Source: Aureitalea sp. L0-47 (GTDB lineage Bacteria; Bacteroidota; Bacteroidia; Flavobacteriales; Flavobacteriaceae). From it: DNA of 64,000 nucleotides. Made by a program: the position numbers and the translations under genes. Location: the NCBI RefSeq assembly GCF_026126405.1, contig NZ_JAFMTQ010000001.1:194610-258609 (forward strand). Reading direction: 5' to 3'. This document shows, piece after piece, positions 6,866 to 47,493 of the stretch (position 1 is the first letter of the stretch; each line of letters begins with the position of its first letter). Below the pieces are notes generated by a model. The model had not been told where the DNA came from and made no database searches. It worked only from the letters and a program-made list of their open reading frames with translations.

Positions 6866-7439
6866 AATATATACTTTCCTGCTTGTTGGTTTCCTTATGA
6901 TGGGAACTGCAAGGTCTCAGGAAACTACCGAAGGATATACTTTTTCAAAAGAAGAACTGGCGCAGCTAAAATTGCAGAAGGAAAAGATGGATGAATGGAT
7001 AACCGTGCTGGAGACTCCTGGTGTTCGAATTGAGGGTAGTAAAATGATCTTCAGTGATGAAGCACAGAAGCTTATTAGCGATCACAACTACAGGATTAGT
7101 TGTTATCGTGAAGCCGGATATACATTTGCAGATGTGCAGGTAAGTTTGCAAAACAACGAATTACAAAAGGCTTTCTGGCAAATGATCAACCTGTATCCCG
7201 ACCACAAAGAGGAAGTATTGAAATACATATATGCCTACGACAATGTATTGCAAACGGATAAGGTGGTGACGGCTGCTTTTTACACCTATGGCTTTTTCGA
7301 CCCGGCAATAACTAAAATAGATAATGGAAGACCGGATGTATATCGCCCGGACCTCTTTGAAGGGCATTTGAAAAGTACCCGTGAAATCGTTTCGTACATA
7401 CTCTATTTCCGCAAGCAGAAAGAGCAGAAGCAAATTTAA
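6843..7439 (+). CDS. Small secreted hypothetical protein, start overlapping the end of paralog 2
   Basis: Signal-peptide-like MIMRVTNRIYTFLLVGFLMMGTARSQ. Overlaps the upstream stop codon by ~20 nt, so it is likely co-transcribed. An alternative start is at 6810. Confidence 0.55.
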   Translation: MIMRVTNRIYTFLLVGFLMMGTARSQETTEGYTFSKEELAQLKLQKEKMDEWITVLETPGVRIEGSKMIFSDEAQKLISDHNYRISCYREAGYTFADVQVSLQNNELQKAFWQMINLYPDHKEEVLKYIYAYDNVLQTDKVVTAAFYTYGFFDPAITKIDNGRPDVYRPDLFEGHLKSTREIVSYILYFRKQKEQKQI

Positions 7440-7500
7440 ATTAGCTAACTAATCAATATAGCCCAGGACCCGGCAGCTTTGTAGAATCTGTCGGGTTTTT

Positions 7501-8655: not shown

Positions 8656-8705
8656 AAGATAGGAAGTTTTGGTCCTGAAAGATAGTAAATTTTGAAAATG
8701 CCAGC

Positions 8706-9677: not shown

Positions 9678-9678
9678 T

Positions 9679-10029
9679 TTATACTAGTAAGTTGTTCTCC
9701 TCATTTGGGAACACAAGTGCGGGCTTGAAGGCTTTAGCTTCCTCAACGCTCATGATGGCGTAAGTGATCAAGATCAGAACGTCGCCCGGGGCTACTTTCC
9801 TTGCAGCCGCTCCATTAAGTGTGATTTCTCCACTTCCGCGTTTACCGGGGATGGCGTAGGTTTCAAGTCGTTCACCATTGTTGTTGTTAACGATCTGAAT
9901 TTTTTCTCCTTCCACAATATTAGCAGCGTCCATTAGATCTTCGTCTATTGTAATACTGCCGATGTAATTAAGATCGGCACCAGTAACCTTAACTCTGTGG
10001 ATTTTGGATTTAACTACATGTATTTGCAT
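9679..10029 (-). CDS. panD: Aspartate 1-decarboxylase
   Basis: [23 protein letters not shown]...GSG...NGAAA are the hallmark PanD motifs, including the pyruvoyl-forming G-S site. Confidence 0.9.
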
Positions 10030-10109
10030 GGCGCAAAGATACTAATTATGATTATGAAACAATAACAGGTGAAAACTGATTTCCAAAGCTCACCTCAGAT
10101 TCCCGTTGC

Positions 10110-10958
10110 TCAGTACAATGCCACATTGTCTATCAGACGAATACTCCCGCTATGCACGGCTATAAAACCCCTGTAGCGATTATGCTTTCGTTTCCGTACT
10201 GCCGGAACCAGTGTTTTCTCGTTGGCGATCTCGAAATACTCCAGTTTCAGTAATTCGTGATGCAAAAACCGTTCCTCAACGAATTTTTTCAAATTACTGA
10301 TGGATTCAGAAGAAAAACGAGTTCTCACTTCCATCAGGACTTTATATATGAACGCTGCTTCCTCAAATTCCTTCTTGCTTAGTCGCCTGTTCCTTGAACT
10401 CATGGCAAGGCCATTCGCTTCTCTTACAATCGGACAGCCGATAATTTCAACGGAGATATGGTGTTTTTCCACCAGTTTCTTTACGATTTGTAACTGCTGA
10501 AAGTCTTTCTCTCCAAAATATGCTCTATCCGGTTCCACAATATCGAATAGTAAGGTGAGGATGGTGCCTACACCGTCGAAATGCCCCTTCCTATGCGCCC
10601 CTTCCATCTGGTGTTCCAGTCCGTCGTAGGTAAACCGCCTCGCTTTAATGGATTCTCCGTAAATACTTTGGGCATCGGGGATATAGAGTATCACTTCACC
10701 TTCCAGTGATTCGAGTAGCTCCTGGTCCTGTTTATGTATTCTGGGGTATTTATCAAGATCCTGTTGATTATCGAATTGAGTGGGATTCACAAAGATGCTA
10801 ACAACAACAAAGTCGTTTTCGCTTAACCCCATCTCCACCAGTGACATATGCCCCCGGTGCAGTGCTCCCATGGTCGGGACAAAACCTAACTGTTTCCCTT
10901 TTTTCTTTTCCCTTCTAACGAAAGATTGAAGAAGTTGCTTGTCTGTGTAAATGACCAT
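10110..10958 (-). CDS. panC: Pantoate--beta-alanine ligase
   Basis: GFVPTMGALHRGHMSLV HIGH-type motif. Length 282 aa. Confidence 0.9.
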   Translation of the reverse strand: MVIYTDKQLLQSFVRREKKKGKQLGFVPTMGALHRGHMSLVEMGLSENDFVVVSIFVNPTQFDNQQDLDKYPRIHKQDQELLESLEGEVILYIPDAQSIYGESIKARRFTYDGLEHQMEGAHRKGHFDGVGTILTLLFDIVEPDRAYFGEKDFQQLQIVKKLVEKHHISVEIIGCPIVREANGLAMSSRNRRLSKKEFEEAAFIYKVLMEVRTRFSSESISNLKKFVEERFLHHELLKLEYFEIANEKTLVPAVRKRKHNRYRGFIAVHSGSIRLIDNVALY

Positions 10959-11151
10959 AGAATATCTTTAGAGCCGGTAAAATTAAGATATTGGCCCCAA
11001 TCTGCATAAAATTTCGTAATTTTGCGTGTTTTTAAGAGCAACGCCAATAAAGCGGCATTTTTTTTGATTTTAGCGTATAAAAGACGCCTGTTTCCAGGAA
11101 ATCCCTGACGTAAACTAGGATTAATTAAAGGTGCCATAAACTATAGAATCA

Positions 11152-11964
11152 ATGATGAAAGATAAAAGAGTCTTGTATGTTTCTTCCGAAGTAGTACCGT
11201 ACTTGCCTGAGACCGAGATTTCTTCGATGTCGTTTGAAACACCTCGAATAGTGAATAACAACAGCGGGCAGATTCGCATCTTCATGCCGCGTTACGGGAA
11301 CATCAATGAGCGGAGACATCAGCTGCACGAAGTTATTCGACTCTCCGGGATGAATCTTACGATCAACGACCTTGACATGCCCCTGATTATTAAAGTTGCC
11401 TCTATTCCGAAGGAGAGAATGCAGGTATATTTTATCGACAATGAAGAGTATTTTAAAAGAAAAGCTACCTATGCCGATGAAGACGGAAATCTCTTTGAGG
11501 ACAATGATGAGCGAGCTATCTTTTTCGCAAAAGGGGTAATTGAGACGGTTAAAAAATTGAACTGGTCACCTGACATTATCCACGTTCACGGATGGTTGGC
11601 TTCTTTGCTTCCTCTGTACCTTCAGAAATATTACGAAAACGAACCTTTGTTCGAAAACAGTAAAATAGTTACTTCAGTATACAATCAAGGCTTCGAAGGA
11701 ACGTTACATGAGAACGTTAAGGATAAGATTATGTTCGATGGTATCTCCGAGGAATGTATCAATGGATTGGATAATCCAACCTACGTAAATATGATGAAGG
11801 TCGCCATAGACAATTCCGATGCAATTATCATTGGTTCCGAAGTGATACCAGAGGAATTATCGACCTATCTTAATGATCTCAAAAAGCCGGTGTTAAAGTA
11901 TCATAAAATTGAGGAGATCGAATCGGCATATATAGATTTTTACCAATCTAAGGTATTAGGATAA
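11152..11964 (+). CDS. Glycogen/starch synthase N-terminal (GT5) domain-only protein
   Basis: KRVLYVSSEVVPYLPET...IHVHGWLASLLPLY matches the GlgA N-terminal Rossmann domain. The protein stops at 270 aa and lacks the C-terminal GT1 domain. Confidence 0.6.
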   Translation: MMKDKRVLYVSSEVVPYLPETEISSMSFETPRIVNNNSGQIRIFMPRYGNINERRHQLHEVIRLSGMNLTINDLDMPLIIKVASIPKERMQVYFIDNEEYFKRKATYADEDGNLFEDNDERAIFFAKGVIETVKKLNWSPDIIHVHGWLASLLPLYLQKYYENEPLFENSKIVTSVYNQGFEGTLHENVKDKIMFDGISEECINGLDNPTYVNMMKVAIDNSDAIIIGSEVIPEELSTYLNDLKKPVLKYHKIEEIESAYIDFYQSKVLG

Positions 11965-23747: not shown

Positions 23748-24806
23748 TTATGATTTGGTGGGCTGGGATTTTTTGTAGTACTTCTTCCTCAACCAAAAAG
23801 CAACCTGCACCAGTAAAATTAGAGCTGGAACCTCTACTAGGGGTCCGATGACACCGGCAAAAGCCTGGCCGGAATTCAACCCGAACACGGCGATAGCAAC
23901 CGCAATGGCGAGTTCGAAATTGTTCCCTGCCGCGGTGAATGAGATAGCTGCATTTTTATCGTAATCTGCTCCCATGGCTCGGCTGATAAAAAATCCTATG
24001 AGAAACATTAAGGCAAAATAGATCAGTAACGGAATCGCAATAATAACTACATCAAAGGGGATCTCTACGATCATTTCTCCCTTCAGTGAGAACATTACAA
24101 TAATGGTAAACAAAAGTGCGATTAAGGTCAGAGGAGATATCTTCGGAATAAAAACCTTGGTATACCATTCCTCTCCGTACATTTTTACAAGGATGAACCT
24201 GCTTAGAATTCCCATCAGAAAAGGAATTCCAAGATAAATGGCCACACTTTCGGCTATGGTTGCAATAGAAATATCCACAATAGCTCCTTCAAACCCGAAA
24301 TATGGAGGAAGTACAGTAATAAATATCCAGGCATAGAAGCTATAGCCAACTACCTGGAAGATGCTGTTAAGAGCGACTAATCCCGCCCCGTATTCGCTGC
24401 TACCTTCCGCCAGGTCATTCCAAACCAATACCATCGCGATGCATCTCGCCAGCCCTATAAGAATAAGCCCAACCATATATTCCGGGTAGTCCCTGAGAAA
24501 AGTTATTGCCAGGAAGAACATTAGAACAGGTCCGATGATCCAATTAAGCAGCAAAGAGACCGAGAGTATCTTCACATTCATAAACACTTTCGGGAGGAGT
24601 GCATAATTTACCTTAGCCAAGGGCGGATACATCATTAATATAAGCCCAATAGCAATGGGAATATTGGTAGTGCCACTGCTCATGGAATCTACAATTGCCG
24701 GAAACGAAGGTGCGAAATATCCGATCCCTACACCAATAGCCATTGCGATAAATATCCAAAGCGTTAGATAGTTGTCCAGGAAGCTTAATTTTTTCTTTTT
24801 GGTCAT
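23748..24806 (-). CDS. acr3: Arsenite efflux transporter, ACR3 family
   Basis: About 10 TM helices with an N-terminal LSFLDRYLTLWIF-like motif characteristic of ACR3. Confidence 0.85.
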
Positions 24807-24826
24807 TTTTGGTCAGTTATTTAATC

Positions 24827-25207
24827 TTAACAACAATCATTTTCGGGAGCTACATTCCTATCCAAAAACCCGGACATCACCTCCTTTATTAGTTCCCACT
24901 TTTCATGATCGATACAATAGCAAACACTGGTTCCATCGACATTCCCCTTGATCAGTCCAAGTTTCTTTAACTCTTTCAAATGCTGGGAAACAGTGGCTTG
25001 CGCCAACCCGATTTCTTCAACCAGGTCTCCGCAAAAACAGTTTTCAATTCTAAATAGATATTGAAGGATGGCAATTCTTGCCGGGTGCCCCAGGGCTTTA
25101 CCTATTAAGGCAATCCGGTTCTGTTCAGAAGTGAATATTTCGGTCTTGGTTAATCCCATTGAAATGAAATTTATCGCAATATTACGATTAAAGATCGTAA
25201 CGAACAT
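24827..25207 (-). CDS. arsR: ArsR/SmtB-family metalloregulator
   Basis: Winged HTH (HPARIAILQYL ... ATVSQHLKELKKLGLI) and a CFCGD metal-binding Cys pair. Confidence 0.85.
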   Translation of the reverse strand: MFVTIFNRNIAINFISMGLTKTEIFTSEQNRIALIGKALGHPARIAILQYLFRIENCFCGDLVEEIGLAQATVSQHLKELKKLGLIKGNVDGTSVCYCIDHEKWELIKEVMSGFLDRNVAPENDCC

Positions 25208-25772: not shown

Positions 25773-25913
25773 AAAAAGATAAGAAAACAGATGGTTATAT
25801 CTCAAATTTAAGTGCAATAGCCCGTACTTACGATTTCCCAATTAGCTTAATGAATGTTTCGAGTAATCGAATATTATCATTAATTTCTAATATGGAGATT
25901 GTATTTTTGACCT

Positions 25914-27059
25914 ATGGCGGAATTCCCGAAAAAATTATTGCAAAAACTGCAGCAGAGAAAAGAGGATAATGCGCTTCGGCATTTGTCGGTGCCCGGGAAA
26001 GGAGTTGATTTCTCTTCAAACGATTACCTGGGATTCAGCAGGAATCCTGATATCGCGAAGAGGGCCAATGAAATCTTTAGTTCCTATACCGAAGAAACTT
26101 CAGGAGCAACAGGTTCCCGTCTTTTAACGGGAAATAGTACGCTCTACAACGAAACAGAGCAGTATATTGCGGAGTTTCATTTCTCTCCTGCTGCCTTGAT
26201 CTTTAATAGTGGTTATGCTGCCAACATCGGTTTATTGGGGAGTGTTCCTCAGAGAGGAGATTATATCTTATACGATGAATTGGTTCATGCTTCCATTCGG
26301 GAAGGGATTTCACTGTCTAACGCCAAGGCTTTTAAATTCCCGCATAATAACCTGGAGTCATTAGAAAACCAGATAGATCGATTGGAAAGGTCTCCGGATT
26401 GTGAGGTTTATGTTGTTACCGAATCTGTCTTTTCCATGGACGGTGACACCCCCGATTTGAAGAGGATATCATCACTGTGTAAAAGGCTGAATTGTCGGTT
26501 GATCGTAGACGAAGCCCACGCCATTGGAATTTCGCAAAGGGGTTTGGTTGTGGATACGGGAATAGAAAACGATGTATTCGCAAGGGTTGTGACCTTTGGA
26601 AAAGCCCTGGGATGCCACGGTGCGGCGGTATTGTGTTCAGAAATATTGAATTCCTACCTGGTGAATTTTGCAAGGAGTTTTATTTATACTACGGGATTAC
26701 CGCCCCATACATTGGCTACCGTAAAATCGGCATATGAATACCTTGATTCCGACTCCGGGATAGAAGAGATAGAAATTCTTAAAAGTAATATAGCAATATT
26801 ACGAAGATATGCTTATAAATATGGACTTAGGGAAATGTTCTTACCCAGTGCAAGTGCCATACATTCTATCGTCATACCAGGAAACGACGAAGTAAAGTCA
26901 TTTTCTGAGAAACTTATGGAAATGGGCTTCGATATAAGACCAATTCTTTCGCCTACAGTACCTAAAGGAAAAGAACGATTGCGAATCTGTCTGCATTCTT
27001 TCAACACTGAAAAAGAAATTGAACAGGTGATGCAACGAATAGCTATTTTTACATCATGA
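25914..27059 (+). CDS. bioF: 8-amino-7-oxononanoate synthase
   Basis: Class-II PLP aminotransferase. The conserved region includes the PLP-lysine context SMDGD. Overlaps bioD by 4 nt. Confidence 0.85.
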   Translation: MAEFPKKLLQKLQQRKEDNALRHLSVPGKGVDFSSNDYLGFSRNPDIAKRANEIFSSYTEETSGATGSRLLTGNSTLYNETEQYIAEFHFSPAALIFNSGYAANIGLLGSVPQRGDYILYDELVHASIREGISLSNAKAFKFPHNNLESLENQIDRLERSPDCEVYVVTESVFSMDGDTPDLKRISSLCKRLNCRLIVDEAHAIGISQRGLVVDTGIENDVFARVVTFGKALGCHGAAVLCSEILNSYLVNFARSFIYTTGLPPHTLATVKSAYEYLDSDSGIEEIEILKSNIAILRRYAYKYGLREMFLPSASAIHSIVIPGNDEVKSFSEKLMEMGFDIRPILSPTVPKGKERLRICLHSFNTEKEIEQVMQRIAIFTS

Positions 27060-27685
27060 GTGACACCTATTTCGTAACTGGAATATCGACGGAAGTTGGA
27101 AAAACGGTGGTTTCGGCCATACTTACCGAAGCACTTGAAGCCGACTATTGGAAACCTATCCAGGCAGGCGAATTGGAGAATTCGGATGCCATGAAAGTTC
27201 AAAAATGGGTATCCAATTCGAAGTCGGTGTTCCACGACAACGCCTTCGCCCTCTCCGCTCCGATGAGTCCACATGCAGCTGCGGAGATCGATGAAGTAAA
27301 GATCCTTTCAGAAAAAATAATTCGTCCGAAAACAAAGAATACCCTGGTTATCGAAGGAGCTGGCGGACTATTGGTGCCTATCAATTCAAGAGAAACCATT
27401 TTAGACCTAATAGAGACTACAGATAAGGTCATCGTAGTTTCTCGTCATTACCTGGGAAGTATTAATCATACACTACTGACATTGGAGACATTGAAAAACC
27501 ACGGTTTGAATATTTGTGGAATCATTTTCAGTGGGAATGAGCATCCTTCAACCGAGTCAATAATTTCCGAAATGGGAGGAGTACCCATCCTGGGCAGAGT
27601 TGATGAAGAACCCTATTTCGATGCGAATGTGATAAAAGAATACGCAGAAGTATTCAGAAAGAAACTAATTTCCGAAAGCAATTGA
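27056..27685 (+). CDS. bioD: Dethiobiotin synthetase
   Basis: P-loop GISTEVGKT. Length 209 aa. Confidence 0.85.
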   Translation: MSDTYFVTGISTEVGKTVVSAILTEALEADYWKPIQAGELENSDAMKVQKWVSNSKSVFHDNAFALSAPMSPHAAAEIDEVKILSEKIIRPKTKNTLVIEGAGGLLVPINSRETILDLIETTDKVIVVSRHYLGSINHTLLTLETLKNHGLNICGIIFSGNEHPSTESIISEMGGVPILGRVDEEPYFDANVIKEYAEVFRKKLISESN

Positions 27686-28950
27686 GCCTTTCTCAAAGAG
27701 ACATAAAAAATATCTGGCACCCGCTTACCCAGCATAAGACGGCTACTGCCCCCATTGGGATAGTTAAGGCCGCAGGGGCAGTGTTACACGACGAAGAGGG
27801 CAAGGAGTATATCGATGGTATCGCTTCCTGGTATACTGCCATGTATGGACATTGTAACGAGTACATCGTAGAAGCGGTGACGAGACAAATGAAACAACTG
27901 GACCAGATCGTTTTCACTGGTTTTACCCATGAGGCAGCGGTTACCTTAGGCGAAAAACTGCTTGAGATACTTCCCGCAAACCAGTCCAGGATATTCTTTA
28001 ATGACAATGGATCAACGGCGGTGGAGGCAGCTATCAAGATGGCGTTTCAGTTTCATTTTAACAAGGGGGAGAAACGAGATACTATCATAGCCTTCGAAGA
28101 GGGGTTTCATGGGGATACATTTGGCGCGATGAGCGCTTCAGGGCTTTCGGTTTATAATGGCCCCTTCGAAGATTTCTTTCTGAAGGTAGAACGAATTCCC
28201 GCACCACAGGAAGACAATCTCGACGAAGTTCTGGAAAAACTAAAAGCGATAATCTCAAATAACAAATGCGCAGCTTTTCTCTATGAACCCCTGGTTCAGG
28301 GAGCTGCCGGTATGAAGTTTCATTCGCCTGAAGGGCTTAATGCAATTCATAAGGTGTGCAGGGAACATGGTATTCTTTGCATCGCCGATGAGGTTATGAC
28401 CGGTTTCGGTAAAACAGGAATGAATTTCGCTTCGGAATATGTAGCGACAAAACCCGATATAATTTGTTTGAGCAAGGCGCTTACCGCGGGTCTCGTTCCT
28501 ATGGGAATAACAAGTTGTTCACAGCAGGTTTATGAAGCTTTTTTGGATGATGATATTGCCAGGGGCTTTTTTCATGCACATACCTACAGTGCGAATCCGC
28601 CTGCCTGTGCTGCTGCCATTGCGGGTATCGAACTACTTACTTCAGAAGAAATTCAGAAATCCATCCGTCGAATTGAAACCAATCACAAACAATTTGCAGC
28701 TTCTATTCGGGATCATAAGAAGGTGAGGGGTGTTAGAACGCTGGGTGTTATACTCGCGGTCGACATTAATGCAGATATGTCGCGCTATGGTTCACTTCGG
28801 AACAAATTATTCGAATTTTTTATGGAACGCGGCATCTTTCTCCGGCCCCTGGGAAACACCATTTATGTGCTACCGCCCTTTGTGATCAATGATGGACAAC
28901 TTCAGAAAATATACAAAGCCATAGAAGAAAGCCTGGTTCTATTCGATTAG
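27682..28950 (+). CDS. bioA: Adenosylmethionine-8-amino-7-oxononanoate aminotransferase
   Basis: Class-III aminotransferase; DEVMTGFGKTG contains the PLP-lysine motif. Confidence 0.85.
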   Translation: MSLSQRDIKNIWHPLTQHKTATAPIGIVKAAGAVLHDEEGKEYIDGIASWYTAMYGHCNEYIVEAVTRQMKQLDQIVFTGFTHEAAVTLGEKLLEILPANQSRIFFNDNGSTAVEAAIKMAFQFHFNKGEKRDTIIAFEEGFHGDTFGAMSASGLSVYNGPFEDFFLKVERIPAPQEDNLDEVLEKLKAIISNNKCAAFLYEPLVQGAAGMKFHSPEGLNAIHKVCREHGILCIADEVMTGFGKTGMNFASEYVATKPDIICLSKALTAGLVPMGITSCSQQVYEAFLDDDIARGFFHAHTYSANPPACAAAIAGIELLTSEEIQKSIRRIETNHKQFAASIRDHKKVRGVRTLGVILAVDINADMSRYGSLRNKLFEFFMERGIFLRPLGNTIYVLPPFVINDGQLQKIYKAIEESLVLFD

Positions 28951-29394
28951 TTCATCATTTGCCCGAAGCTGATTATTTGCCTGTAGAAGGTCGATCACCT
29001 GGTCGCTGTCTTTTATAAATACCTCCATGCGATCGTACTTCCAGTTGCCTTCAACGCCTTCACCTGAAACATAGATGGTAGCAGACGCATTAGGTCCTTT
29101 GATAGGAATACTCAATTGAGCCTCACCAAAGCCTCCGGAATAGTTTATGCTCCCGCCAGCCATACCATCGGTCTCGATGGGTTCACCAAGTATTTCAATA
29201 ACCTCGGTATTACTCGAAGCCTCCGTTAAGGCGTCTTCATAGGCCTGGGAGTCTGACATTAGGCTGGTAACTCCCCAGATTATGGATCCGGCAAACGCTA
29301 CAATTAAAATAATAATAAGCAAGCATCCGCCCGTAGGGACTACCCATTTCCAATTTCTTTTGAACCAACTTCCGCGTGGGATCTCTTCTTCCAT
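28939..29394 (-). CDS. Hypothetical single-pass membrane protein (Coa1-like)
   Basis: N-terminal TM anchor followed by a soluble domain. Convergent with bioA and overlaps its end. Confidence 0.4.
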   Translation of the reverse strand: MEEEIPRGSWFKRNWKWVVPTGGCLLIIILIVAFAGSIIWGVTSLMSDSQAYEDALTEASSNTEVIEILGEPIETDGMAGGSINYSGGFGEAQLSIPIKGPNASATIYVSGEGVEGNWKYDRMEVFIKDSDQVIDLLQANNQLRANDELIE

Positions 29395-29458
29395 TTTATT
29401 TATTTATCAGTGGTTTTAATCTACCCGAAGGTTTATTTTTGCTTTAAATTAATAAAAA

Positions 29459-30610
29459 TTGCAACACCCTATCTCGATTTCCGGAATTCGATCAGTATCT
29501 GCTTTAGGAAATTCTATTGAAGAAATCTGGAACAGCTATTTAAAAGGAGCCCCCCTATTTAAAAAATCCAGGCTTGGTGTTTCGGAAGATTGGATCTCCG
29601 AGATCAGCGATACTTCCGAAAAGGCACTGCTGGAGTTAAGGCAAAGCCAGCAGGCATACACGAAGTTAGACAGAAGTGTCTTGCTTGCCATGCTTTCGGC
29701 CAGGCAGTCTTTTCAATCAGGGAAGAGCGATATGCGAATTGGGATCAATTTTGGGTCTTCGAGGGGTGCCACTCAACTTTTCGAATCGTATCATGAGACC
29801 TTTCTGAACAGCGGCTCCGTGTCGGCATTTACCTCACCCACCACAACCCTGGGTAATATTTCGTCCTGGGTGGGACAGGAGTTAGGGATAGATGGATATA
29901 TGTCTGGACACTCGGTAACCTGTTCAACTGCCTTGCACGGTGTTCTAAACGGTATCGCCTGGTTGCAATCCGGCATGGCAGATCTGTTCATAGCAGGTGG
30001 TAGTGAAGCGGCTCTCACTCCCTTTACGCTGGCTCAGATGAAAGCGATGAAATTGTATAGTACTTCTGAAAATGTAATGGCCTGTGAGTCCATGCGGTTT
30101 CAGAAGAAAAAGAACAGCATGGTACTGGGAGAGGCAGGTGTGGCTGCAGTTTTGGAGAAGAACATTTCAGAAAAAACCCTGGCAAAAATTATTGGGTATG
30201 GGGTTGCTTCCGAAAAGCTTAAGCACAATAGTTCGATCTCTGATAATGCCGATTGTTTCCAGCGATCCATGCGTGGAGCAATGGAGAGTGCGGGTTTGGA
30301 AAATGTAGATATTGTGATCATGCATGCCCCCGGAACGGTAAAGGGAGACCTGGCCGAAAAGAACGCTCTCGATCTGGTGTTTGGTAACAATTTGCCGCTT
30401 TTAACGACTAACAAGTGGTTGATCGGCCACACCTTCGGGGCCTCGGGTATGATGAGTATGGAAATGGCTGTACTCATGTTGCGCAAAAATACCTTCATAG
30501 AAAATCCCTTCTATGAGAACTCACGCCACCTTCCGAACGAGTTAAATACCGTGCTGGTGAATGCTGTGGGATTCGGTGGAAATGCGGTAAGCATTATTAT
30601 CAGGAAATAA
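29459..30610 (+). CDS. Beta-ketoacyl-ACP-synthase-like protein (KAS I/II-type, Cys-His-His triad) with TTG start
   Basis: ISISGIRSVSALGN aligns with the KAS N-terminus. The active-site Cys is in CSTALHG, the first His in IMHAPGT, the second in GHTFGASG. An in-frame TAA sits immediately upstream of the TTG. Confidence 0.65.
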   Translation: MQHPISISGIRSVSALGNSIEEIWNSYLKGAPLFKKSRLGVSEDWISEISDTSEKALLELRQSQQAYTKLDRSVLLAMLSARQSFQSGKSDMRIGINFGSSRGATQLFESYHETFLNSGSVSAFTSPTTTLGNISSWVGQELGIDGYMSGHSVTCSTALHGVLNGIAWLQSGMADLFIAGGSEAALTPFTLAQMKAMKLYSTSENVMACESMRFQKKKNSMVLGEAGVAAVLEKNISEKTLAKIIGYGVASEKLKHNSSISDNADCFQRSMRGAMESAGLENVDIVIMHAPGTVKGDLAEKNALDLVFGNNLPLLTTNKWLIGHTFGASGMMSMEMAVLMLRKNTFIENPFYENSRHLPNELNTVLVNAVGFGGNAVSIIIRK

Positions 30611-30675: not shown

Positions 30676-31284
30676 ATGACTGAATGGTTCTCTTCTCTCG
30701 GCACTTTTGAAAAAGCGTTTTGGGTGATCGCAATTGTGGGTTCCCTCGTCTTTCTGATTGTTTTGGTGATGACATTCATAGGCGGTGATGTGGATGATGC
30801 AGGTGATGTTGACGCTGATGTTGACGGAGATACGGGAATTGGTTTTCAGTTCTTATCCTTTAAAAACCTGGTGGGATTTTTCACCATTTTCGGCTGGTCC
30901 GGGATCAGTTGTATGAGTATTGGGATTCCGGCTCCATTCAGTATTCTTATAGCAACCTTATGCGGACTGGCCATGATGTTCATTATGGCGTCTATCTTCT
31001 ATTACCTGGGAAAACTAACAAGCGATGGTTCCCTTGTAATGAAGAATGCGTTAAACGCCGTAGGAGAAGTATATCTCAGCATTGGAGCCAATCGGTCCAA
31101 ATTGGGAAAGGTACAGATCACTATACAGGGAACTATGCGGGAACTGGATGCGCTTACCGACAGTGATCAGGATCTGAAGCAAGGTGACATTATAACCGTT
31201 ACCGAAGTAACTTCCAACGGAGTCCTTATTGTTAACAAACCCGGGGAAGAAAACAAGAACATATCTTTTATTGTAAACGATTAA
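30676..31284 (+). CDS. NfeD-family membrane protein (OB-fold C-domain)
   Basis: TM helices plus a C-terminal beta-rich domain. Immediately upstream of the flotillin gene, the canonical NfeD-SPFH pairing. Confidence 0.7.
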   Translation: MTEWFSSLGTFEKAFWVIAIVGSLVFLIVLVMTFIGGDVDDAGDVDADVDGDTGIGFQFLSFKNLVGFFTIFGWSGISCMSIGIPAPFSILIATLCGLAMMFIMASIFYYLGKLTSDGSLVMKNALNAVGEVYLSIGANRSKLGKVQITIQGTMRELDALTDSDQDLKQGDIITVTEVTSNGVLIVNKPGEENKNISFIVND

Positions 31285-31294
31285 TTTTTTCTAA

Positions 31295-32707
31295 ATGACA
31301 TTACTATTACCCTTTCAAATTGAATCTGTAGCGCCCTTTTTTACAATTGGGTTTGCTGTACTCTTCGTTTTTATTATCCTGATCACTTTTATCAGGCGAT
31401 ACAAGCGTTGTCCTTCAGACCGGATCCTGGTGATCTACGGTAGAGTGGGAACCGGTAATTCGGCCAAATGTATTCATGGTGGGGCCGCCTTTATCTGGCC
31501 CGTAATTCAAGATTACGAGTTTCTCGACCTGACACCGATCTCGATAGAAGTAAACCTTATCAATGCACTGAGTAAACAAAATATTCGTGTGAACGTACCT
31601 TCTCGTTTCACAATTGGTATTTCTACTGAACCGGGCGTTATGCAGAATGCGGCAGAGCGACTACTTGGACAGGGATTAAAGGAAATACAAGAACTGGCCA
31701 TGGAGATCATTTTCGGACAATTGCGTCTGGTTGTAGCTTCCATGGATATTGAAGAGATCAACTCCGATAGGGACAAATTCCTGAGTAATATTTCAAACAG
31801 TGTTGAATCCGAATTGAAAAAAGTTGGTCTGAAACTTATCAATGTAAACATTACCGATATCGTGGACGAATCCGGTTATATTGAAGCACTGGGTAAAGAA
31901 GCAGCAGCTCACGCGATCAACGCCGCACGTAAGTCGGTAGCCGAAAAGAACAGGGATGGAGCCATTGGTGAAGCAAATGCTGTTCAGGACGAGCGTACCC
32001 AGGTTGCTTCGGCGAATGCAAAAGCCACAGAAGGTGAGAACCTTGCTAAGATCGAAGTAGCGAATTCGAATTCTAAGAGAAGACAGCGAGAAGCTGAAGC
32101 AGAACGCGTAGCTATCGCTTCAGAAAAAGTACAGTCGGCAAAAGCACTGGAAGAGTCCTATGCGGCTGAAAAAGACGCCGAGATCGTTCGTGCTGAACGC
32201 GAGCGTAGTTCTCAACTGGCAGACGTGATCGTACCAGCCGAGATCGATAAAAAGAAAGTAGAGATCGACGCAGAAGCTGAGGCTGAAAGAATTCGTAGGC
32301 AGGCTAAGGGTGAAGCTGATGCGATCCTATACAAAGCTCAGGCTGAGGCCCAGGGACTTTTTGAGATCCTAACCAAGCAGGCTGAAGGTTTCGACAGAAT
32401 TGTAAAAGCGGCTGGGAATGATTCAAAAGATGCTGTACTTTTGCTCATCGCCGACAAGCTGCCTGATCTGGTGAAGATCCAGGCAGATGCCATTAAGAAC
32501 ATCAAGATCGATAAGATAACGGTGTGGGAGAATGGAAATTCCAAGGACGGAAAAACTGCTACCTCGAACTTCATTTCAGGTATGTACGGAGCCGTACCCC
32601 CATTGCAGGAGATGTTTAATATGGCTGGGATGCAATTGCCCGACTATCTGAAGGGTAAGCAAGTGGAAAGCGATGATGAGCCTAAAGAAGAACAAGACGA
32701 AAAATAG
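31295..32707 (+). CDS. Flotillin-like SPFH/band-7 protein
   Basis: N-terminal TM, SPFH domain, and a long EA-repeat coiled coil (AEAERVA...EAEAERIRRQAKGEADA). Confidence 0.85.
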   Translation: MTLLLPFQIESVAPFFTIGFAVLFVFIILITFIRRYKRCPSDRILVIYGRVGTGNSAKCIHGGAAFIWPVIQDYEFLDLTPISIEVNLINALSKQNIRVNVPSRFTIGISTEPGVMQNAAERLLGQGLKEIQELAMEIIFGQLRLVVASMDIEEINSDRDKFLSNISNSVESELKKVGLKLINVNITDIVDESGYIEALGKEAAAHAINAARKSVAEKNRDGAIGEANAVQDERTQVASANAKATEGENLAKIEVANSNSKRRQREAEAERVAIASEKVQSAKALEESYAAEKDAEIVRAERERSSQLADVIVPAEIDKKKVEIDAEAEAERIRRQAKGEADAILYKAQAEAQGLFEILTKQAEGFDRIVKAAGNDSKDAVLLLIADKLPDLVKIQADAIKNIKIDKITVWENGNSKDGKTATSNFISGMYGAVPPLQEMFNMAGMQLPDYLKGKQVESDDEPKEEQDEK

Positions 32708-32715: not shown

Positions 32716-33810
32716 ATGACCCAAACGAGACACGACTGGACAAAAGAAGAGATACTCGAAATTTATAATAAACCCATGATGGAGCTGCTTTACGAAGCAG
32801 CTTCCGTTCATAGGGAGCATCACAACCCTAACCAGGTGCAGGTTTCAACCCTGCTTTCCATTAAGACCGGTGGTTGTCCTGAAGACTGTGGTTATTGTCC
32901 GCAAGCGGCCAGGTACCATACGGATATCGAAGGAAATGACCTAATGAGCGTTCAGCAGGTGAAGGCCCAGGCCTTGCGTGCCAAAGCCTCCGGAAGCTCC
33001 AGAGTATGTATGGGAGCTGCCTGGCGGAATGTGAAGGATGGAGAAGAATTCGACCAGGTCCTGGAGATGGTGAGAACCATCAACAAACTGGAAATGGAAG
33101 TATGTTGTACGTTGGGGATGATTACCGAAAACCAGGCAAAACGCCTCGCTGAAGCGGGATTGTATGCCTATAACCACAACCTGGATACTTCCGAAGACTA
33201 TTATAAGGACGTGATCTCAACGCGTGCGTTTCAGGATCGATTGGATACCATAGACAATGTGCGAAAGACCAACGTCACAGTTTGTAGTGGCGGGATCATT
33301 GGTATGGGTGAAAACCTTGAAGACCGGGCAGGGATGCTCGTGGCACTGGCGACCCTCGATCCACAACCCGAGTCGGTTCCTATTAATGCTCTCGTCGCAG
33401 TTGAGGGAACTCCCATGCAGGAAATGGAGCCGATTAGTATCTGGGAGATGATACGCATGGTAGCGACTACCAGGATCGTGATGCCGCAAACGCAGGTTAG
33501 ATTGTCTGCCGGAAGGACAGAAATGAGCAGGGAAGGACAGGCCATGTGTTTCTTTGCCGGGGCCAACTCCATTTTTGCCGGGGATAAACTCTTAACCACA
33601 CCTAATCCTGATGTAAATGAGGATATGGAAATGTTTGAATTATTGGGGCTGAAACCCCAGGCGCCCTTCGTTAAGAAGGCGCAGCCGGAGACGGTGGAGG
33701 CGGATGAATCTGAATATACAGCCCTTGATGAAAAACCAAAATGGACGCGCCCGGGACATACGATAGACCGCAACGAAGAAGCGCGCCAGAAGACAAAACT
33801 GAACAGTTGA
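32716..33810 (+). CDS. bioB: Biotin synthase (radical SAM)
   Basis: CPEDCGYCPQ radical-SAM cluster motif. Starts 9 nt after the flotillin stop. Confidence 0.9.
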   Translation: MTQTRHDWTKEEILEIYNKPMMELLYEAASVHREHHNPNQVQVSTLLSIKTGGCPEDCGYCPQAARYHTDIEGNDLMSVQQVKAQALRAKASGSSRVCMGAAWRNVKDGEEFDQVLEMVRTINKLEMEVCCTLGMITENQAKRLAEAGLYAYNHNLDTSEDYYKDVISTRAFQDRLDTIDNVRKTNVTVCSGGIIGMGENLEDRAGMLVALATLDPQPESVPINALVAVEGTPMQEMEPISIWEMIRMVATTRIVMPQTQVRLSAGRTEMSREGQAMCFFAGANSIFAGDKLLTTPNPDVNEDMEMFELLGLKPQAPFVKKAQPETVEADESEYTALDEKPKWTRPGHTIDRNEEARQKTKLNS

Positions 33811-34520: not shown

Positions 34521-34539
34521 AAACTAATAACTTTTTTGA

Positions 34540-34566
34540 GAGCCCCGTTTTCGGGGCTTTTTTTGT
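34540..34566 (+). terminator. Rho-independent terminator
   Basis: gagagccccgttttcggggct hairpin followed by an 8-T run. Confidence 0.8.
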
Positions 34567-34616
34567 TGTGTTACCTTAGCGTTAAGTTTTGTAATTTTAC
34601 ATATTCAGTTTGCAGC

Positions 34617-35483
34617 ATGGACTTACAGCAGATAGAAAGAGTAGATACTATTACCAAGGAAGATTTCCTAAAGCATTATTTCAAGCCCCAGAAGCCGGTG
34701 ATAATTGAACGGTTTATTGAGGATTGGCCCGCTTACTCAAAGTGGAATCTTGATTATATAGCTGAAATTGCCGGGGATAAAGAAGTTCCTCTCTACGACG
34801 ACCGTCCAGTGGATTATAAGGATGGTTTTAACGAACCCCATGCGAAGATGAAGATGAGGGAGTATATCGATCTTTTGAAACGCGAACCAACCAAATTCCG
34901 CATATTTTTATGGAATGTGCTCAAAGAAGTTCCCGAACTGCAGGGAGATTACAATTGGCCGGATTTTGGTTTACGACTCATGAAGGGCCTTCCCATGTTG
35001 TTCTTTGGTGGAGAGGATAGTTACACTTTTATGCATTACGATATTGACCTCGCGAATATATTTCATTTTCACTTTCACGGGAAGAAACAGGTGATCCTTT
35101 TCGACCAGGACCAGAATGATTATTTGTATAAGATACCTCATTCGTTGATAACAAGGGAAGACATTAATTTCGCCGATCCTGATTACGGGAAGTGGCCAGC
35201 ACTAAAGAAAGCCAACGGATTTATTGGAAACCTGGAACATGGGAATGTACTCTACATGCCGGAAGGTTACTGGCACTATATGAGATATCTTACCCCCGGT
35301 TTTTCAATGAGCCTGCGAGCTATTGCCAGGAATCCTAAGAACTTGGGTAAGGCCGTGTATAATGTGTTCGTGATGCGCCACTACGACAACCTCATGCGTC
35401 GTATGAAAGGCCAGGCGTGGATAGATGGGAAAAATGCCAAAGCCATCGAGCGCACCCACAGAAAATTAGGCATCGAGTTTTAG
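34617..35483 (+). CDS. JmjC/cupin-like domain protein
   Basis: Cupin_8-like: W...WNLDYI... and the HYD (His/Asp Fe-binding) context FMHYDIDLANIFHFHFHG. Start placed at MDLQQ, downstream of the terminator. Confidence 0.55.
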   Translation: MDLQQIERVDTITKEDFLKHYFKPQKPVIIERFIEDWPAYSKWNLDYIAEIAGDKEVPLYDDRPVDYKDGFNEPHAKMKMREYIDLLKREPTKFRIFLWNVLKEVPELQGDYNWPDFGLRLMKGLPMLFFGGEDSYTFMHYDIDLANIFHFHFHGKKQVILFDQDQNDYLYKIPHSLITREDINFADPDYGKWPALKKANGFIGNLEHGNVLYMPEGYWHYMRYLTPGFSMSLRAIARNPKNLGKAVYNVFVMRHYDNLMRRMKGQAWIDGKNAKAIERTHRKLGIEF

Positions 35484-44400: not shown

Positions 44401-44450
44401 AAATGAACAGATTTATGGTTATACTTGTATACCTTAAAGATAGCTTTTTA

Positions 44451-45329
44451 ATGCGTTTAAATACAAAACTTTTAATTTTAGCGCTGCTTGCATTTATAAC
44501 TACCTCTGCTCAAGAGGATTATGAGTATATCGGAGCAATTAAGTTAAATGACACTTCGTTTATTTCGTACAAAATTAACTTCAATGAAAACGACGGTTTA
44601 ATACAAGGATACTCCATTACCGACCTTGGAGGCTCTCATGAAACCATGTCCTATCTTTCGGGATCTTTCGATTCAGAGAAGGATGAAATAGAGTTTTATG
44701 AAAGTGGTATTATTTATACCAAGTCATACATCACCCAGAATGATTTCTGTTATGTTCATTTTGCGGGGAGGTTAAAAAGACTGGATGATCGACAGGGTAT
44801 TCAAGGCTCTTTCAAAGGTTTATATGACAATGGGGAATCCTGTATTAACGGTTCCATTGAAATGCTAAATTTCAGGAAGGTCCTGAGACGAGCGAAACGC
44901 CTGGATAAGAAAATCGATCGCACTATTCTGATCAGTAAAGAAAAGCGCGATAAGGTAAACCTCGTAAATGAACTTGAGCGTACAAAAATAAATATGCTCA
45001 AGAAGGACGAGGTGTTGAATGTATTTACGAATGATACTGAAATCAAACTTCGCCTTTACGATGCCGGACAGGAAGATGGCGATCGTATATCACTATATAT
45101 CAATGACAGCTTGTTATTGGATAATTATACTGTGAGCAATACACCTAAGGAGATTAGTGTCACAGTAGAAGAACCGCAAACGACCTTACTCATCCAGGCT
45201 TTGAATGCCGGTACCGTTGGTGGAAATACTGTAAAACTGGAGCTCGTACTTGATGAATCTACGGTAGTCGATGCTTTAACCAATCTAAAAGAAGGAGAGA
45301 AGGCTACCCTGGTGTTGAGGAAACGATAA
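44451..45329 (+). CDS. Hypothetical secreted protein
   Basis: Signal peptide MRLNTKLLILALLAFITTSAQ. No recognisable domain. Confidence 0.5.
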   Translation: MRLNTKLLILALLAFITTSAQEDYEYIGAIKLNDTSFISYKINFNENDGLIQGYSITDLGGSHETMSYLSGSFDSEKDEIEFYESGIIYTKSYITQNDFCYVHFAGRLKRLDDRQGIQGSFKGLYDNGESCINGSIEMLNFRKVLRRAKRLDKKIDRTILISKEKRDKVNLVNELERTKINMLKKDEVLNVFTNDTEIKLRLYDAGQEDGDRISLYINDSLLLDNYTVSNTPKEISVTVEEPQTTLLIQALNAGTVGGNTVKLELVLDESTVVDALTNLKEGEKATLVLRKR

Positions 45330-46854: not shown

Positions 46855-47493
46855 ATGCCGCTTTACAAAACTATAACAGTGAACGAAGGGACTAAGGTCC
46901 TCATTTGGAAGATAGAAGAATCCTTTGAAGCCCTTTCAGAAGGAATTGTTTTAACTGAAAACTGTCGGCAACGGGTTGATGGGATGAAAAGTGACCTGCA
47001 CCGAAGGGGTTTTATGAGTATTCGTCATTTATTAGCTGCTGAAGGCTATACGGACCATGACCTCTACTACGATGAGAATGGTAAACCTCACCTAACCGAT
47101 AATAAATTCATTTCCATTACCCATTCATTTATCTTTTCAGCAATAATCATCGGATCCGAGGAAGTAGGTATCGATATTGAAAAGCAACGTCCGAAGATCT
47201 TAAGAATAGCCCATAAATTCACACCTATCGAAGAATACCGCCATCTCGAAAATGATGAGCTGATCATGCGTAAACTCACCATGGTATGGGGCGCTAAAGA
47301 AAGCCTGTATAAAAGTTTTGCAGCTCCTGGTCTGAGTTTTTTGCAACATATCTACGTAGAGGAATTCGATATGGAAGACCTGTTTACCTCGGCCTTTGTG
47401 TCGTTTAATGGAAAAGAACAGGCGTATGATGTAAATATGCTCGAATTCGAAGGATTCACCTGCGCCTACGCCTTACTTTCTGAAGCTAGCTAA
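46855..47493 (+). CDS. 4'-phosphopantetheinyl transferase (Sfp/ACPS superfamily)
   Basis: GIDIE and WGAKESLYK motifs. Confidence 0.7.
   Translation: MPLYKTITVNEGTKVLIWKIEESFEALSEGIVLTENCRQRVDGMKSDLHRRGFMSIRHLLAAEGYTDHDLYYDENGKPHLTDNKFISITHSFIFSAIIIGSEEVGIDIEKQRPKILRIAHKFTPIEEYRHLENDELIMRKLTMVWGAKESLYKSFAAPGLSFLQHIYVEEFDMEDLFTSAFVSFNGKEQAYDVNMLEFEGFTCAYALLSEAS

What the first reader, a model, noticed from the sequence alone, without database searches (positions are those of the whole stretch)
29459..30610. KAS I/II-like enzyme with TTG start inside the biotin cluster: candidate pimeloyl-thioester synthase
The protein keeps the full Cys-His-His condensing-enzyme triad (CST..., HAPGT, GHTFGASG) but is short (383 aa) and diverged from FabF/FabB. 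It must initiate at TTG, because an in-frame TAA sits immediately upstream and the KAS N-terminus alignment begins 5 residues after the TTG. A condensing enzyme embedded in a bio cluster that lacks bioC/bioH suggests a non-canonical route to the pimeloyl moiety. An analogy is the KAS III-like BioZ of alpha-proteobacteria.
Basis: inference. Interest (0 to 1): 0.55.

Follow-up and report, generated by a model that had tools for sequence, protein, structure and literature searches.

The report
Arginine-pocket ketosynthase in biotin operon
A diverged fatty-acid-type condensing enzyme, whose normally greasy substrate pocket carries an invariant arginine and polar residues, sits inside the biotin operon of most Flavobacteriaceae and is the best candidate for the still-unknown step by which these abundant marine bacteria make the seven-carbon (pimeloyl) precursor of biotin.

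Summary
The ORF is real: 29459-30610 (+), 383 aa, TTG start, identical to an NCBI protein of Aureitalea sp. L0-47 with only a generic name. It has the KAS I/II fold (AF2 pLDDT 97; TM about 0.9 to FabF). The Cys155-His289-His324 triad and Lys319 are all kept.

It is not a housekeeping FabF. It scores 143 bits against a TIGR03150 cut-off of 494. It is 19-30% identical to FabFs that are about 50% identical to each other, and relatives carry a separate canonical FabF.

Across 117 family representatives, EcFabF back-gate Ile108 is always Arg (R102). Gate Phe400 is never Phe, Phe202 is Met or Leu, and six further positions that are apolar or glycine in EcFabF are Ser/Thr/Gln.

In 106 of 115 loci with enough flank, a bio gene lies within 3 kb, usually as bioF-bioD-bioA-KAS(-bioB). 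Two compact operons in unrelated neighbourhoods, one with a different gene order, show the same link. No bioC, bioG, bioH or bioE-like gene recurs in these clusters.

Best reading: an omega-carboxyacyl-specific ketosynthase that makes 3-oxopimeloyl-ACP. This is an analogue of BioZ and of the Desulfovibrio bio-cluster FabF-like gene, but it is a distinct family.

Unproven: the activity itself, and genome-wide absence of bioC/bioH. Several distant members are not bio-linked.

The parts
29459..30610 (+). KAS I/II-fold condensing enzyme, 383 aa, TTG start; a member of a Bacteroidota family linked to the bio operon
29762..29764 (+). Codon AGG for Arg102. It is invariant in 117/117 family representatives and aligns with the EcFabF back-gate residue Ile108.
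   Evidence: role of I108 from PMC9006962
29921..29923 (+). Codon for Cys155, the active-site nucleophile (EcFabF C163)
30038..30040 (+). Codon for Met194, at the position of EcFabF back-gate Phe202 (family: Met 93, Leu 15 of 117)
30323..30325 (+). Codon for His289 (EcFabF H303)
30413..30415 (+). Codon for Lys319 (EcFabF K335)
30428..30430 (+). Codon for His324 (EcFabF H340)
30566..30568 (+). Codon for Val370, at the position of EcFabF gating Phe400 (family: A/T/V/I/M and others, never Phe)
29434..29441 (+). TATTTTTG, a match to the Bacteroidota -7 promoter consensus TAnnTTTG, 18 nt before the TTG start. It suggests an own promoter, since a minus-strand gene separates the KAS from bioA. The same octamer lies at 25902-25909 before bioF.
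   Evidence: Sequence. The consensus is recalled from memory. The 10-mer TTTATTTTTG occurs 3 times in the window against 0.69 expected. Weak inference.
25914..27059 (+). bioF (8-amino-7-oxononanoate synthase), the presumed consumer of the pimeloyl thioester
   Evidence: TIGR00858: 329 bits, below the cut-off of 426
27056..27685 (+). bioD (dethiobiotin synthase)
27682..28950 (+). bioA (DAPA aminotransferase). It lies immediately upstream of the KAS in 114/133 related loci.
32716..33810 (+). bioB (biotin synthase)

Best explanation
The gene encodes a dedicated biotin-pathway ketosynthase of the KAS I/II (FabF-like) fold. It supplies the pimeloyl thioester that BioF needs.

Proposed mechanism:
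1. A short omega-carboxy acyl primer is loaded on Cys155. Glutaryl is the most likely primer; malonyl in a first round, then glutaryl, is also possible.
2. The free omega-carboxylate is held by the invariant Arg102 and the Ser/Thr/Gln-lined pocket. These residues replace the hydrophobic FabF acyl channel and its Ile108-Phe202 back gate.
3. His289, His324 and Lys319 decarboxylate malonyl-ACP, and Claisen condensation gives 3-oxopimeloyl-ACP.
4. The housekeeping FabG/FabZ/FabI reduce this to pimeloyl-ACP, as they do after BioZ.
5. BioF, BioA, BioD and BioB finish biotin.

No methyl-ester disguise (BioC/BioH) is needed, because the pocket accepts the charge.

Shown here: the gene, fold, intact catalytic residues, family-wide pocket substitutions, separateness from housekeeping FabF, and conserved, independently re-arranged operon linkage with bioFDAB.

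Inferred: the substrates, the product, ACP versus CoA use, and necessity for biotin synthesis.
For: 1. Catalytic competence. C155/H289/K319/H324 are invariant in 117 representatives (33-53% identical to the window protein). They align to EcFabF C163/H303/K335/H340. The EcFabF sequence used was verified identical to PDB 6okg_A. The AF2 model has pLDDT 97.3, and the top Foldseek hits are FabF structures with TM about 0.9 at 22-28% identity.

2. Remodelled pocket.
- Ile108 -> Arg102 in 117/117.
- Phe202 -> Met/Leu.
- Phe400 -> never Phe.
- L111, V134, I138, A162, G198 and G201 -> Thr/Ser/Thr/Thr/Thr/Gln, each in at least 87% of representatives. G107 -> Ser in 95%. F133 -> Thr/Ala/Ser.

The review PMC9006962 places the I108-F202 gate at C7-C8 of a bound acyl chain. 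It also says F400 prevents malonyl loading before transacylation.

3. Not a housekeeping KAS. The protein falls below every NCBIfam cut-off. It is 19-30% identical to FabFs that share about 50% with each other. A canonical FabF (GAGIGG, NTFGFGG) is encoded separately in L020, and a 416-aa KAS gene next to an ACP gene lies in L089.

4. Genomic linkage.
- 106/115 loci with at least 3 kb on both sides have a bio gene within 3 kb, and bioA is just upstream in 114/133.
- The KAS stays after bioA in Flavobacterium spp. where bioB has moved.
- A compact bioF-bioD-bioA-KAS-bioB operon occurs in a different neighbourhood (L087).
- bioB-bioF-bioD-bioA-KAS occurs with a 4-nt bioA/KAS overlap (L089).

5. 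No alternative pimelate gene. No recurrent methyltransferase, DUF452, alpha/beta hydrolase or ferritin-like gene occurs in these clusters or among the window ORFs scanned.

6. Precedents.
- BioZ condenses glutaryl-CoA with malonyl-ACP, and FAS II finishes the chain (PMC7645780, PMC8024396).
- The FabF-like DVU2563 is required for biotin synthesis in a bioC/bioH-less Desulfovibrio. Its authors predicted less hydrophobic active sites (PMC10102598).
- Flavobacteriia are mostly biotin prototrophs by gene content (PMC9561691).
Against: - The whole atpDC...recX-rng region is syntenic in Flavobacteriaceae, so most of the 106 linked loci are not independent observations.
- Family members stand alone, away from bio genes, in several genomes. 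These are Pedobacter arcticus, Capnocytophaga canimorsus, F. dankookense and several distant MAG contigs. Only 3 of 8 loci below 40% identity are linked.
- Genome-wide absence of bioC/bioG/bioH/bioE could not be tested.
- BioE is reported in some Flavobacteriaceae (PMC12915131).
- EcFabF F400V/I mutants condense less well (PMC9006962), so loss of Phe400 could mean a non-condensing role.
- BioZ binds the glutaryl carboxyl with two serines, not an arginine (PMC12625853).
- The position of Arg102 in the pocket is inferred from alignment to FabF. It was not measured on coordinates.
- No source of a glutaryl thioester was identified.
Confidence: 0.55

Rival explanations
1. The gene is a second, lipid-related KAS paralogue of Bacteroidota, for example for a special fatty acid or polar lipid. 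Its position beside bio genes would be inherited synteny without functional meaning.
For: The region from atpDC to recX-rng is collinear across Flavobacteriaceae. Members are stand-alone in Pedobacter, Capnocytophaga, F. dankookense and several distant MAGs. One member overlaps an amine-oxidase-type gene (L092).
Against: Two compact operons in unrelated neighbourhoods, one with a different gene order and translational overlap, still include the KAS. The KAS stays with bioA when bioB moves away. An invariant Arg and a polar pocket do not fit an ordinary hydrophobic acyl substrate.
Confidence: 0.17
2. The enzyme is an accessory ketosynthase of a conventional BioC/BioG(H) pathway encoded elsewhere in the genome. 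It would elongate malonyl-ACP methyl ester more efficiently than housekeeping FabF.
For: Only 64 kb of the genome was readable, so bioC/bioG elsewhere cannot be excluded. Other Bacteroidota (Bacteroides) use BioC-BioG (PMC3494674).
Against: The methyl ester exists to make the chain look hydrophobic. A pocket with an invariant Arg and six Ser/Thr/Gln replacements is the opposite adaptation. In about 130 KAS-containing bio clusters no bioC/bioG-like gene recurs. The Fodinibius paper describes bioC within a bioADC-bioF gene region (PMC9909488).
Confidence: 0.1
3. The enzyme is a biotin-pathway enzyme but not a condensing one. It would be a KS-fold acyltransferase or decarboxylase, for example moving a glutaryl or pimeloyl group between CoA and ACP or priming by malonyl decarboxylation. 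Another enzyme would make the C7 chain.
For: Gating Phe400 is lost family-wide. EcFabF F400V/I mutants lose condensation activity (PMC9006962). NCBIfam gives a weak hit to the KS-like acyltransferase AmcF. Gating loop 2 is remodelled.
Against: The complete Cys-His-His-Lys set, D297 and E300 are invariant or nearly invariant. This is typical of active decarboxylating condensers. Type I PKS KS domains with Val/Ile at this position condense normally (PMC9006962).
Confidence: 0.1
4. The pimeloyl moiety comes from oxidative cleavage of long acyl chains (BioI/BioE-like) by another conserved neighbour, the Cupin_8 (JmjC-like) protein downstream of bioB, or by an unlinked BioE. The KAS would then be peripheral.
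For: Cupin_8 is co-oriented within 2.5 kb downstream of bioB in 53 of 87 loci, and stays with bioB after rearrangement in some Flavobacterium loci. BioE occurs in some Flavobacteriaceae.
Against: Cupin_8 is absent from the compact operons L087, L089, L103 and L114, which keep the KAS. No ferritin-like gene is seen in the clusters. No evidence links Cupin_8 to acyl cleavage.
Confidence: 0.05

Closest known systems
FabF / KAS II (TIGR03150; e.g. E. coli FabF, PDB 6okg/2gfw)
   Same: Same fold and domain pair (PF00109 + PF02801). Same Cys-His-His triad and Lys. The nearest sequence and structure relatives are FabFs.
   Different: Only 19-30% identity, and 143 bits against a cut-off of 494. It is about 30 residues shorter. 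Back gate Ile108 -> Arg and Phe202 -> Met, and gate Phe400 is lost. Pocket residues are polar. It is encoded in the bio operon rather than with acpP/fab genes, and a genuine FabF coexists in related genomes.
BioZ (KAS III-type 3-ketoacyl-ACP synthase of alpha-proteobacteria)
   Same: A ketosynthase gene embedded in bio clusters of bacteria without bioC/bioH. [quoted passage not shown] That is the reaction type proposed here.
   Different: BioZ belongs to the FabH family with a Cys-His-Asn triad. It binds the C5 carboxyl by Ser84/Ser287 (PMC12625853). The present enzyme has a Cys-His-His KAS I/II fold with an invariant Arg. The two are not homologous at family level.
Desulfovibrio bio-cluster FabF-like protein DVU2563 (with dedicated ACP, FabG-like and FabZ-like genes)
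   Same: A KAS-domain gene annotated as FabF inside a bioFADB cluster of organisms lacking bioC/bioH. It is genetically required for biotin synthesis. Its authors proposed that it elongates free-carboxyl malonyl-ACP in a less hydrophobic active site (PMC10102598).
   Different: The Bacteroidota clusters contain only the KAS. No dedicated ACP, reductase, dehydratase or nitroreductase-like gene is present. The hosts are aerobes.
BioE/BioL (ferritin-like diiron oxygenase pathway of Weeksellaceae and others)
   Same: Another recently found solution to pimelate synthesis in Flavobacteriales that lack bioC/bioH, encoded next to the bioFD/BA genes (PMC12704756, PMC12915131).
   Different: The chemistry is entirely different (oxidative cleavage of long acyl chains), and so is the protein family. 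No such gene occurs in the KAS-containing clusters.

Membership tests
FabF (KAS II, TIGR03150) | KAS I/II thiolase-like fold with ketoacyl-synt N and C domains | tested here: met
   Pfam PF00109 2.4e-16 and PF02801 4.4e-18. AF2 model against FabF structures gives TM about 0.9.
FabF (KAS II, TIGR03150) | Cys-His-His catalytic triad plus Lys335 | tested here: met
   C155/H289/H324/K319 align with C163/H303/H340/K335 and are invariant in the family.
FabF (KAS II, TIGR03150) | Score at or above the curated equivalog cut-off | tested here: not met
   142.6 bits against 493.75. All 17 NCBIfam KAS models that matched are far below their cut-offs.
FabF (KAS II, TIGR03150) | Hydrophobic acyl channel with the Ile108-Phe202 back gate and gating Phe400 | tested here: not met
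   Arg102 (117/117), Met194, and Val370 (never Phe in the family). Polar replacements occur at positions matching EcFabF L111, F133, V134, I138, A162, G198 and G201.
FabF (KAS II, TIGR03150) | Acts as the housekeeping elongating KAS, typically encoded next to acpP and other fab genes | tested here: not met
   A separate canonical FabF lies next to rnc in L020. A separate 416-aa KAS gene lies next to an ACP gene in L089. The query lies in the bio cluster.
FabB (KAS I, NF005935) | Score at or above the curated cut-off | tested here: not met
   87.9 bits against 630.
BioZ (KAS III-type pimeloyl-ACP pathway synthase) | FabH-family fold with a Cys-His-Asn triad | tested here: not met
   The query has KAS I/II domains and a Cys-His-His triad. 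BioZ features are from PMC7645780.
BioZ (KAS III-type pimeloyl-ACP pathway synthase) | Encoded with the bioFDAB genes | tested here: met
   bioF-bioD-bioA-KAS(-bioB) in the window and in most related loci.
BioZ (KAS III-type pimeloyl-ACP pathway synthase) | Host genome lacks bioC/bioH | tested here: inconclusive
   No bioC/bioG/bioH-like gene occurs in the clusters or among the window ORFs scanned. Whole genomes could not be read.
BioZ (KAS III-type pimeloyl-ACP pathway synthase) | Condenses glutaryl thioester with malonyl-ACP to 3-oxopimeloyl-ACP; complements E. coli delta-bioC/delta-bioH | not testable with these tools
   Requires enzymology and genetics.
Desulfovibrio-type bio-cluster FAS module (DVU2560-2563) | KAS accompanied in the bio cluster by a dedicated ACP, a 3-oxoacyl-ACP reductase and FabZ-like genes | tested here: not met
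   No such genes recur in 175 loci.
Desulfovibrio-type bio-cluster FAS module (DVU2560-2563) | Sequence orthology to DVU2563 | not tested
   The DVU2563 sequence could not be obtained with the tools.
BioC-BioH(G/J/K/V) pathway | SAM-dependent malonyl-ACP O-methyltransferase plus a pimeloyl-ACP methyl esterase | tested here: inconclusive
   None in the bio cluster, in the 39 window ORFs scanned, or recurrently in related clusters. Two single loci (L017, L024) carry an alpha/beta hydrolase.

The most novel reading that the evidence does not exclude
Flavobacteriaceae and some other Bacteroidota make the biotin precursor by a fifth, so far undescribed route. A single stand-alone KAS II-like 'omega-carboxyacyl-ACP synthase' has an Arg-lined pocket that accepts free-carboxyl primers (malonyl and/or glutaryl). 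Ordinary FAS II enzymes can then build pimeloyl-ACP with no methyl-ester disguise, no dedicated ACP and no oxygenase.
Probability: 0.45. Interest if true: 0.8.

Novelty: new variant of a known kind. Interest (0 to 1): 0.66.

Why it matters
How the pimeloyl moiety is made is the variable and still incompletely mapped part of biotin synthesis. Four routes are established: BioC-BioH, BioI/BioW, BioZ and BioE. A fifth, in Desulfovibrio, is defined only genetically.

By gene content, Flavobacteriia are among the main biotin producers in the ocean. Yet no paper in the searchable library assigns them a pimelate route or mentions this gene.

The family gives a concrete, cheaply testable candidate. It is a single gene, and E. 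coli delta-bioC/delta-bioH complementation is a standard assay. It also gives a structural hypothesis (Arg102 in place of the FabF back gate) for how a fatty-acid ketosynthase can be converted to accept dicarboxylic substrates. That is of interest for engineering dicarboxylic-acid and biotin production, and for correcting vitamin-auxotrophy predictions from genomes.

Tried and rejected
- **Housekeeping FabF/FabB paralogue.** Rejected on NCBIfam scores, 19-30% identity, and coexisting canonical FabF genes.
- **Other pimelate genes in the window.** 39 ORFs were scanned with Pfam or NCBIfam, and none was found.
- **Recurrent extra genes in 175 related loci.** ORF clustering found only unrelated inserts: a DUF2007-like ORF, a SET-domain protein, a PMT_2 glycosyltransferase, GIY-YIG, PDDEXK, a Coa1-like gene, and NfeD + flotillin. 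Two singleton alpha/beta hydrolases (L017, L024) are not conserved.
- **Literature.** Seven full-text searches for a described KAS I/II-type biotin enzyme in Flavobacteria/Bacteroidota found nothing specific. The FEMS review PMC8371270 is not held.
- **Taxonomic range beyond Flavobacteriaceae.** The genome-contig scan returned only Flavobacteriaceae. A profile search with distant members was again dominated by them. Range was finally shown by names (Sphingobacteriia MAG, Pedobacter, Pelobium, 'Bacteroidetes bacterium GWE2_29_8').
- **Sigma-70 promoter and terminator scan.** It gave no more sites than shuffles. The Bacteroidota-type -7 motif remark is weak.
- **Not possible with these tools.** Reading the rest of the genome, obtaining DVU2563 or BioE/BioC reference sequences, and measuring the Arg102-Cys155 distance (model coordinates are not returned).
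Full report
**1. The observation**

The window has an ORF at 29459-30610 on the plus strand. It is 383 aa long and starts at TTG. An in-frame TAA lies at 29453-29455, two codons before the TTG. The first in-frame ATG is at residue 78. Homologues start at the equivalent position with a conserved 'P-I-S-I-T/S-G' N-terminus, for example with an ATG start in Cochleicola. The TTG start is therefore sound.

Pfam finds both ketoacyl-synthase domains. The protein is 100% identical to an NCBI protein of Aureitalea sp. L0-47 that carries only a generic name.

The surrounding layout is:
- bioF 25914-27059
- bioD 27056-27685
- bioA 27682-28950
- a Coa1-like membrane protein on the minus strand, 28939-29394
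- the KAS
- an NfeD-like protein and a flotillin, 30676-32707
- bioB 32716-33810

.

**2. What kind of KAS it is**

Against NCBIfam the best model is FabF TIGR03150, at 142.6 bits against a curated cut-off of 493.75. FabB gives 87.9 against 630. No KAS model reaches its cut-off.

The nearest solved structures by sequence are FabFs at E about 1e-34. An AlphaFold2 model built on 117 family sequences has mean pLDDT 97.3. It superposes on FabF structures with TM about 0.9 at 22-28% identity.

I verified my recalled E. coli FabF sequence as identical to PDB 6okg_A and added it to the family alignment. C155, H289, K319 and H324 align with C163, H303, K335 and H340, and are invariant in all 117 representatives.

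The family is 19-30% identical to E. coli, Listeria and Flavobacterium FabFs. Those three are about 50% identical to one another. In a neighbour-joining tree the family members group together, apart from the three FabFs.

Related genomes encode a normal FabF elsewhere. F. dankookense has one with canonical GAGIGG and NTFGFGG motifs next to rnc (L020). The L089 contig has a 416-aa KAS gene beside an ACP gene. So the gene is not a housekeeping fabF/fabB paralogue.

**3. The pocket**

The most informative result is the set of family-wide substitutions at positions that line the FabF acyl channel.

| EcFabF residue | Family residue | Frequency |
|---|---|---|
| Ile108 | Arg102 | 117/117 |
| Phe202 | Met or Leu | 108/117 |
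| Phe400 | A/T/V/I/M and others | never Phe |
| G107 | Ser | 111/117 |
| L111 | Thr | 111/117 |
| F133 | Thr/Ala/Ser | 105/117 |
| V134 | Ser | 116/117 |
| I138 | Thr | 114/117 |
| A162 | Thr | 115/117 |
| G198 | Thr | 102/117 |
| G201 | Gln | 116/117 |

The review of stand-alone ketosynthases (PMC9006962) makes three relevant points:
- I108F restricts FabF to short chains.
- The Phe400 rotamer prevents malonyl loading before transacylation.

That L111, F133', V134', I138', A162 and G198 line the channel rests on my recollection of FabF structures. It was not confirmed in a paper read here.

An invariant guanidinium at the back gate, in a pocket turned polar, is what one would expect for an acyl chain of about five to seven carbons ending in a carboxylate. 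The positive-patch residues for ACP docking are partly retained (positions of K65, K69, K128 and R206). This is consistent with ACP-borne substrates.

**4. Genomic association**

The family is very large in Flavobacteriaceae.

In 82 genome loci the order bioF-(DUF2007-like ORF)-bioD-bioA-KAS is nearly universal. The KAS remains directly after bioA in Flavobacterium species where bioB has moved or is inverted.

Pooling the genome, metagenome and look-up loci analysed (173 loci):
- 106 of 115 loci with at least 3 kb on both sides have a bio gene within 3 kb.
- bioA lies just upstream in 114 of 133 loci.

The whole atpDC-to-recX region is collinear in this family, so these counts are not independent. 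Independent support comes from distant members:
- P0180 (38% identity) lies in a compact bioF-bioD-bioA-KAS-bioB operon with 3-4 nt gaps, in an unrelated neighbourhood (L087).
- P0160 (40%) lies in bioB-bioF-bioD-bioA-KAS, with a 4-nt bioA/KAS overlap, between a TPR gene and gyrB (L089).
- Further compact versions appear in L103, L114 and L121.

No methyltransferase, DUF452, esterase or ferritin-like gene recurs within or beside any of these clusters. The inserts are unrelated genes. None of the window ORFs scanned is such a gene.

**5. Counter-evidence**

Members of the family, all keeping Arg102, also occur away from bio genes:
- Pedobacter arcticus
- Capnocytophaga canimorsus
- F. dankookense, where purN, rnhA and fabF replace bioFDA next to the KAS
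- five of eight loci below 40% identity

Bio genes are often scattered, so this does not refute a biotin role. It does leave room for a broader or different function.

I could not read the rest of any genome. BioE has been reported in some Flavobacteriaceae.

**6. Mechanism proposed**

By analogy with BioZ (PMC7645780; PMC8024396) and with the proposal for the Desulfovibrio cluster (PMC10102598), I propose the following:
1. The enzyme loads a free-carboxyl primer on Cys155.
2. Arg102 and the Ser/Thr/Gln lining anchor the omega-carboxylate.
3. The enzyme condenses the primer with malonyl-ACP to give 3-oxopimeloyl-ACP.
4. Housekeeping FabG/FabZ/FabI reduce this to pimeloyl-ACP for BioF.

Glutaryl (C5) fits the register of a residue at the C7-C8 gate best, given the reach of an arginine. 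The loss of Phe400 makes priming by malonyl itself conceivable, with two rounds C3 to C5 to C7. These substrate assignments are inference. BioZ itself uses two serines rather than an arginine for the C5 carboxyl.

**7. Comparison with what is known, and novelty**

The enzyme works like BioZ, but it is not a member of that family. BioZ has a KAS III fold and a Cys-His-Asn triad.

It resembles the Desulfovibrio DVU2563 case: a FabF-like gene in a bio cluster, no bioC/bioH, and a genetic requirement for biotin synthesis. It lacks the accompanying ACP, reductase and dehydratase genes, and it occurs in aerobic Bacteroidota. Orthology to DVU2563 was not testable.

Seven full-text searches found no paper describing this family or a pimelate route for Flavobacteriaceae. 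The 2025 BioE papers list only BioC-BioH, BioI-BioW, BioZ and BioE.

I therefore rate it a new variant of a known kind: a ketosynthase-based entry into pimelate synthesis. The molecular signature is specific and the test is simple.

**8. Verdict**

- Confidence in the biotin-pathway omega-carboxyacyl ketosynthase reading: about 0.55.
- Interest: 0.66. This reflects the ecological weight of Flavobacteriia as biotin producers (PMC9561691) and the direct testability by E. coli delta-bioC/delta-bioH complementation.

Noticed in passing
window 23748-25207 (minus strand): An ACR3 arsenite efflux gene (TIGR00832, 439 bits) and an ArsR-family regulator sit between atpC and the GNAT/bioF genes. Relatives carry other genes at this spot (L001, L002), so it looks like a small arsenic-resistance insertion.
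   Followed up: partly
window 30676-32707; also L005, L011, L013, L016, L025, L027, L031, L035, L039, L040 and others: An NfeD-like membrane protein plus a flotillin (SPFH/Band 7) pair lies between the KAS and bioB in the window. The same pair lies there in about 15 of the 82 genome and look-up loci L001-L082. It is therefore a recurrent arrangement, not a one-off insertion. Its relation to the bio genes is unknown.
   Followed up: partly
window 28939-29394 (minus strand): A Coa1-like (PF08695) small membrane protein is encoded on the opposite strand between bioA and the KAS. Its 3' end overlaps the end of bioA by 12 nt. It is present in 17 of 82 genome loci, and it splits the KAS from the bioFDA transcription unit.
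   Followed up: partly
window 34536-35483; related loci: A Cupin_8 (JmjC-like) gene is co-oriented within 2.5 kb downstream of bioB in 53 of 87 loci. It stays with bioB after rearrangement in some Flavobacterium loci (e.g. L147). It is absent from the compact operons L087, L089 and L103. Function unknown.
   Followed up: partly
L001:7187-7603 and 38 other genome loci; 16 metagenome loci: A roughly 134-aa ORF with a weak DUF2007 match (21.8 bits, below the cut-off) lies between bioF and bioD in about half of the related loci. It is absent from the window, where bioF and bioD overlap by 4 nt.
   Followed up: partly
window 25914-27059: The BioF protein scores 329 bits on TIGR00858, below the curated cut-off of 426. 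It is still far above serine palmitoyltransferase and Kbl models, so the Flavobacteriaceae BioF is itself somewhat diverged.
   Followed up: no
L020 and L042 (Flavobacterium dankookense and a related MAG), 7074-11158: The KAS keeps its place next to recX, but the bioFDA genes are replaced by housekeeping fabF, rnc, purN and rnhA. Whether these genomes still have bio genes elsewhere could not be checked.
   Followed up: partly
L092:4241-6705 ('Sphingobacteriia bacterium' MAG): A distant family member (36% identity) overlaps by 4 nt the end of a flavin amine-oxidase/NAD_binding_8 gene. This hints at a different operon partner in that lineage.
   Followed up: no
window 44403-45329 and 6810-7439: Two ORFs of 308 aa and 209 aa have no match in Pfam or NCBIfam at the thresholds used.
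   Followed up: no
window 46855-47493: A 4'-phosphopantetheinyl transferase superfamily protein (PF01648) is encoded 16 kb downstream of the KAS. No carrier-protein gene was noticed near the bio cluster.
   Followed up: no
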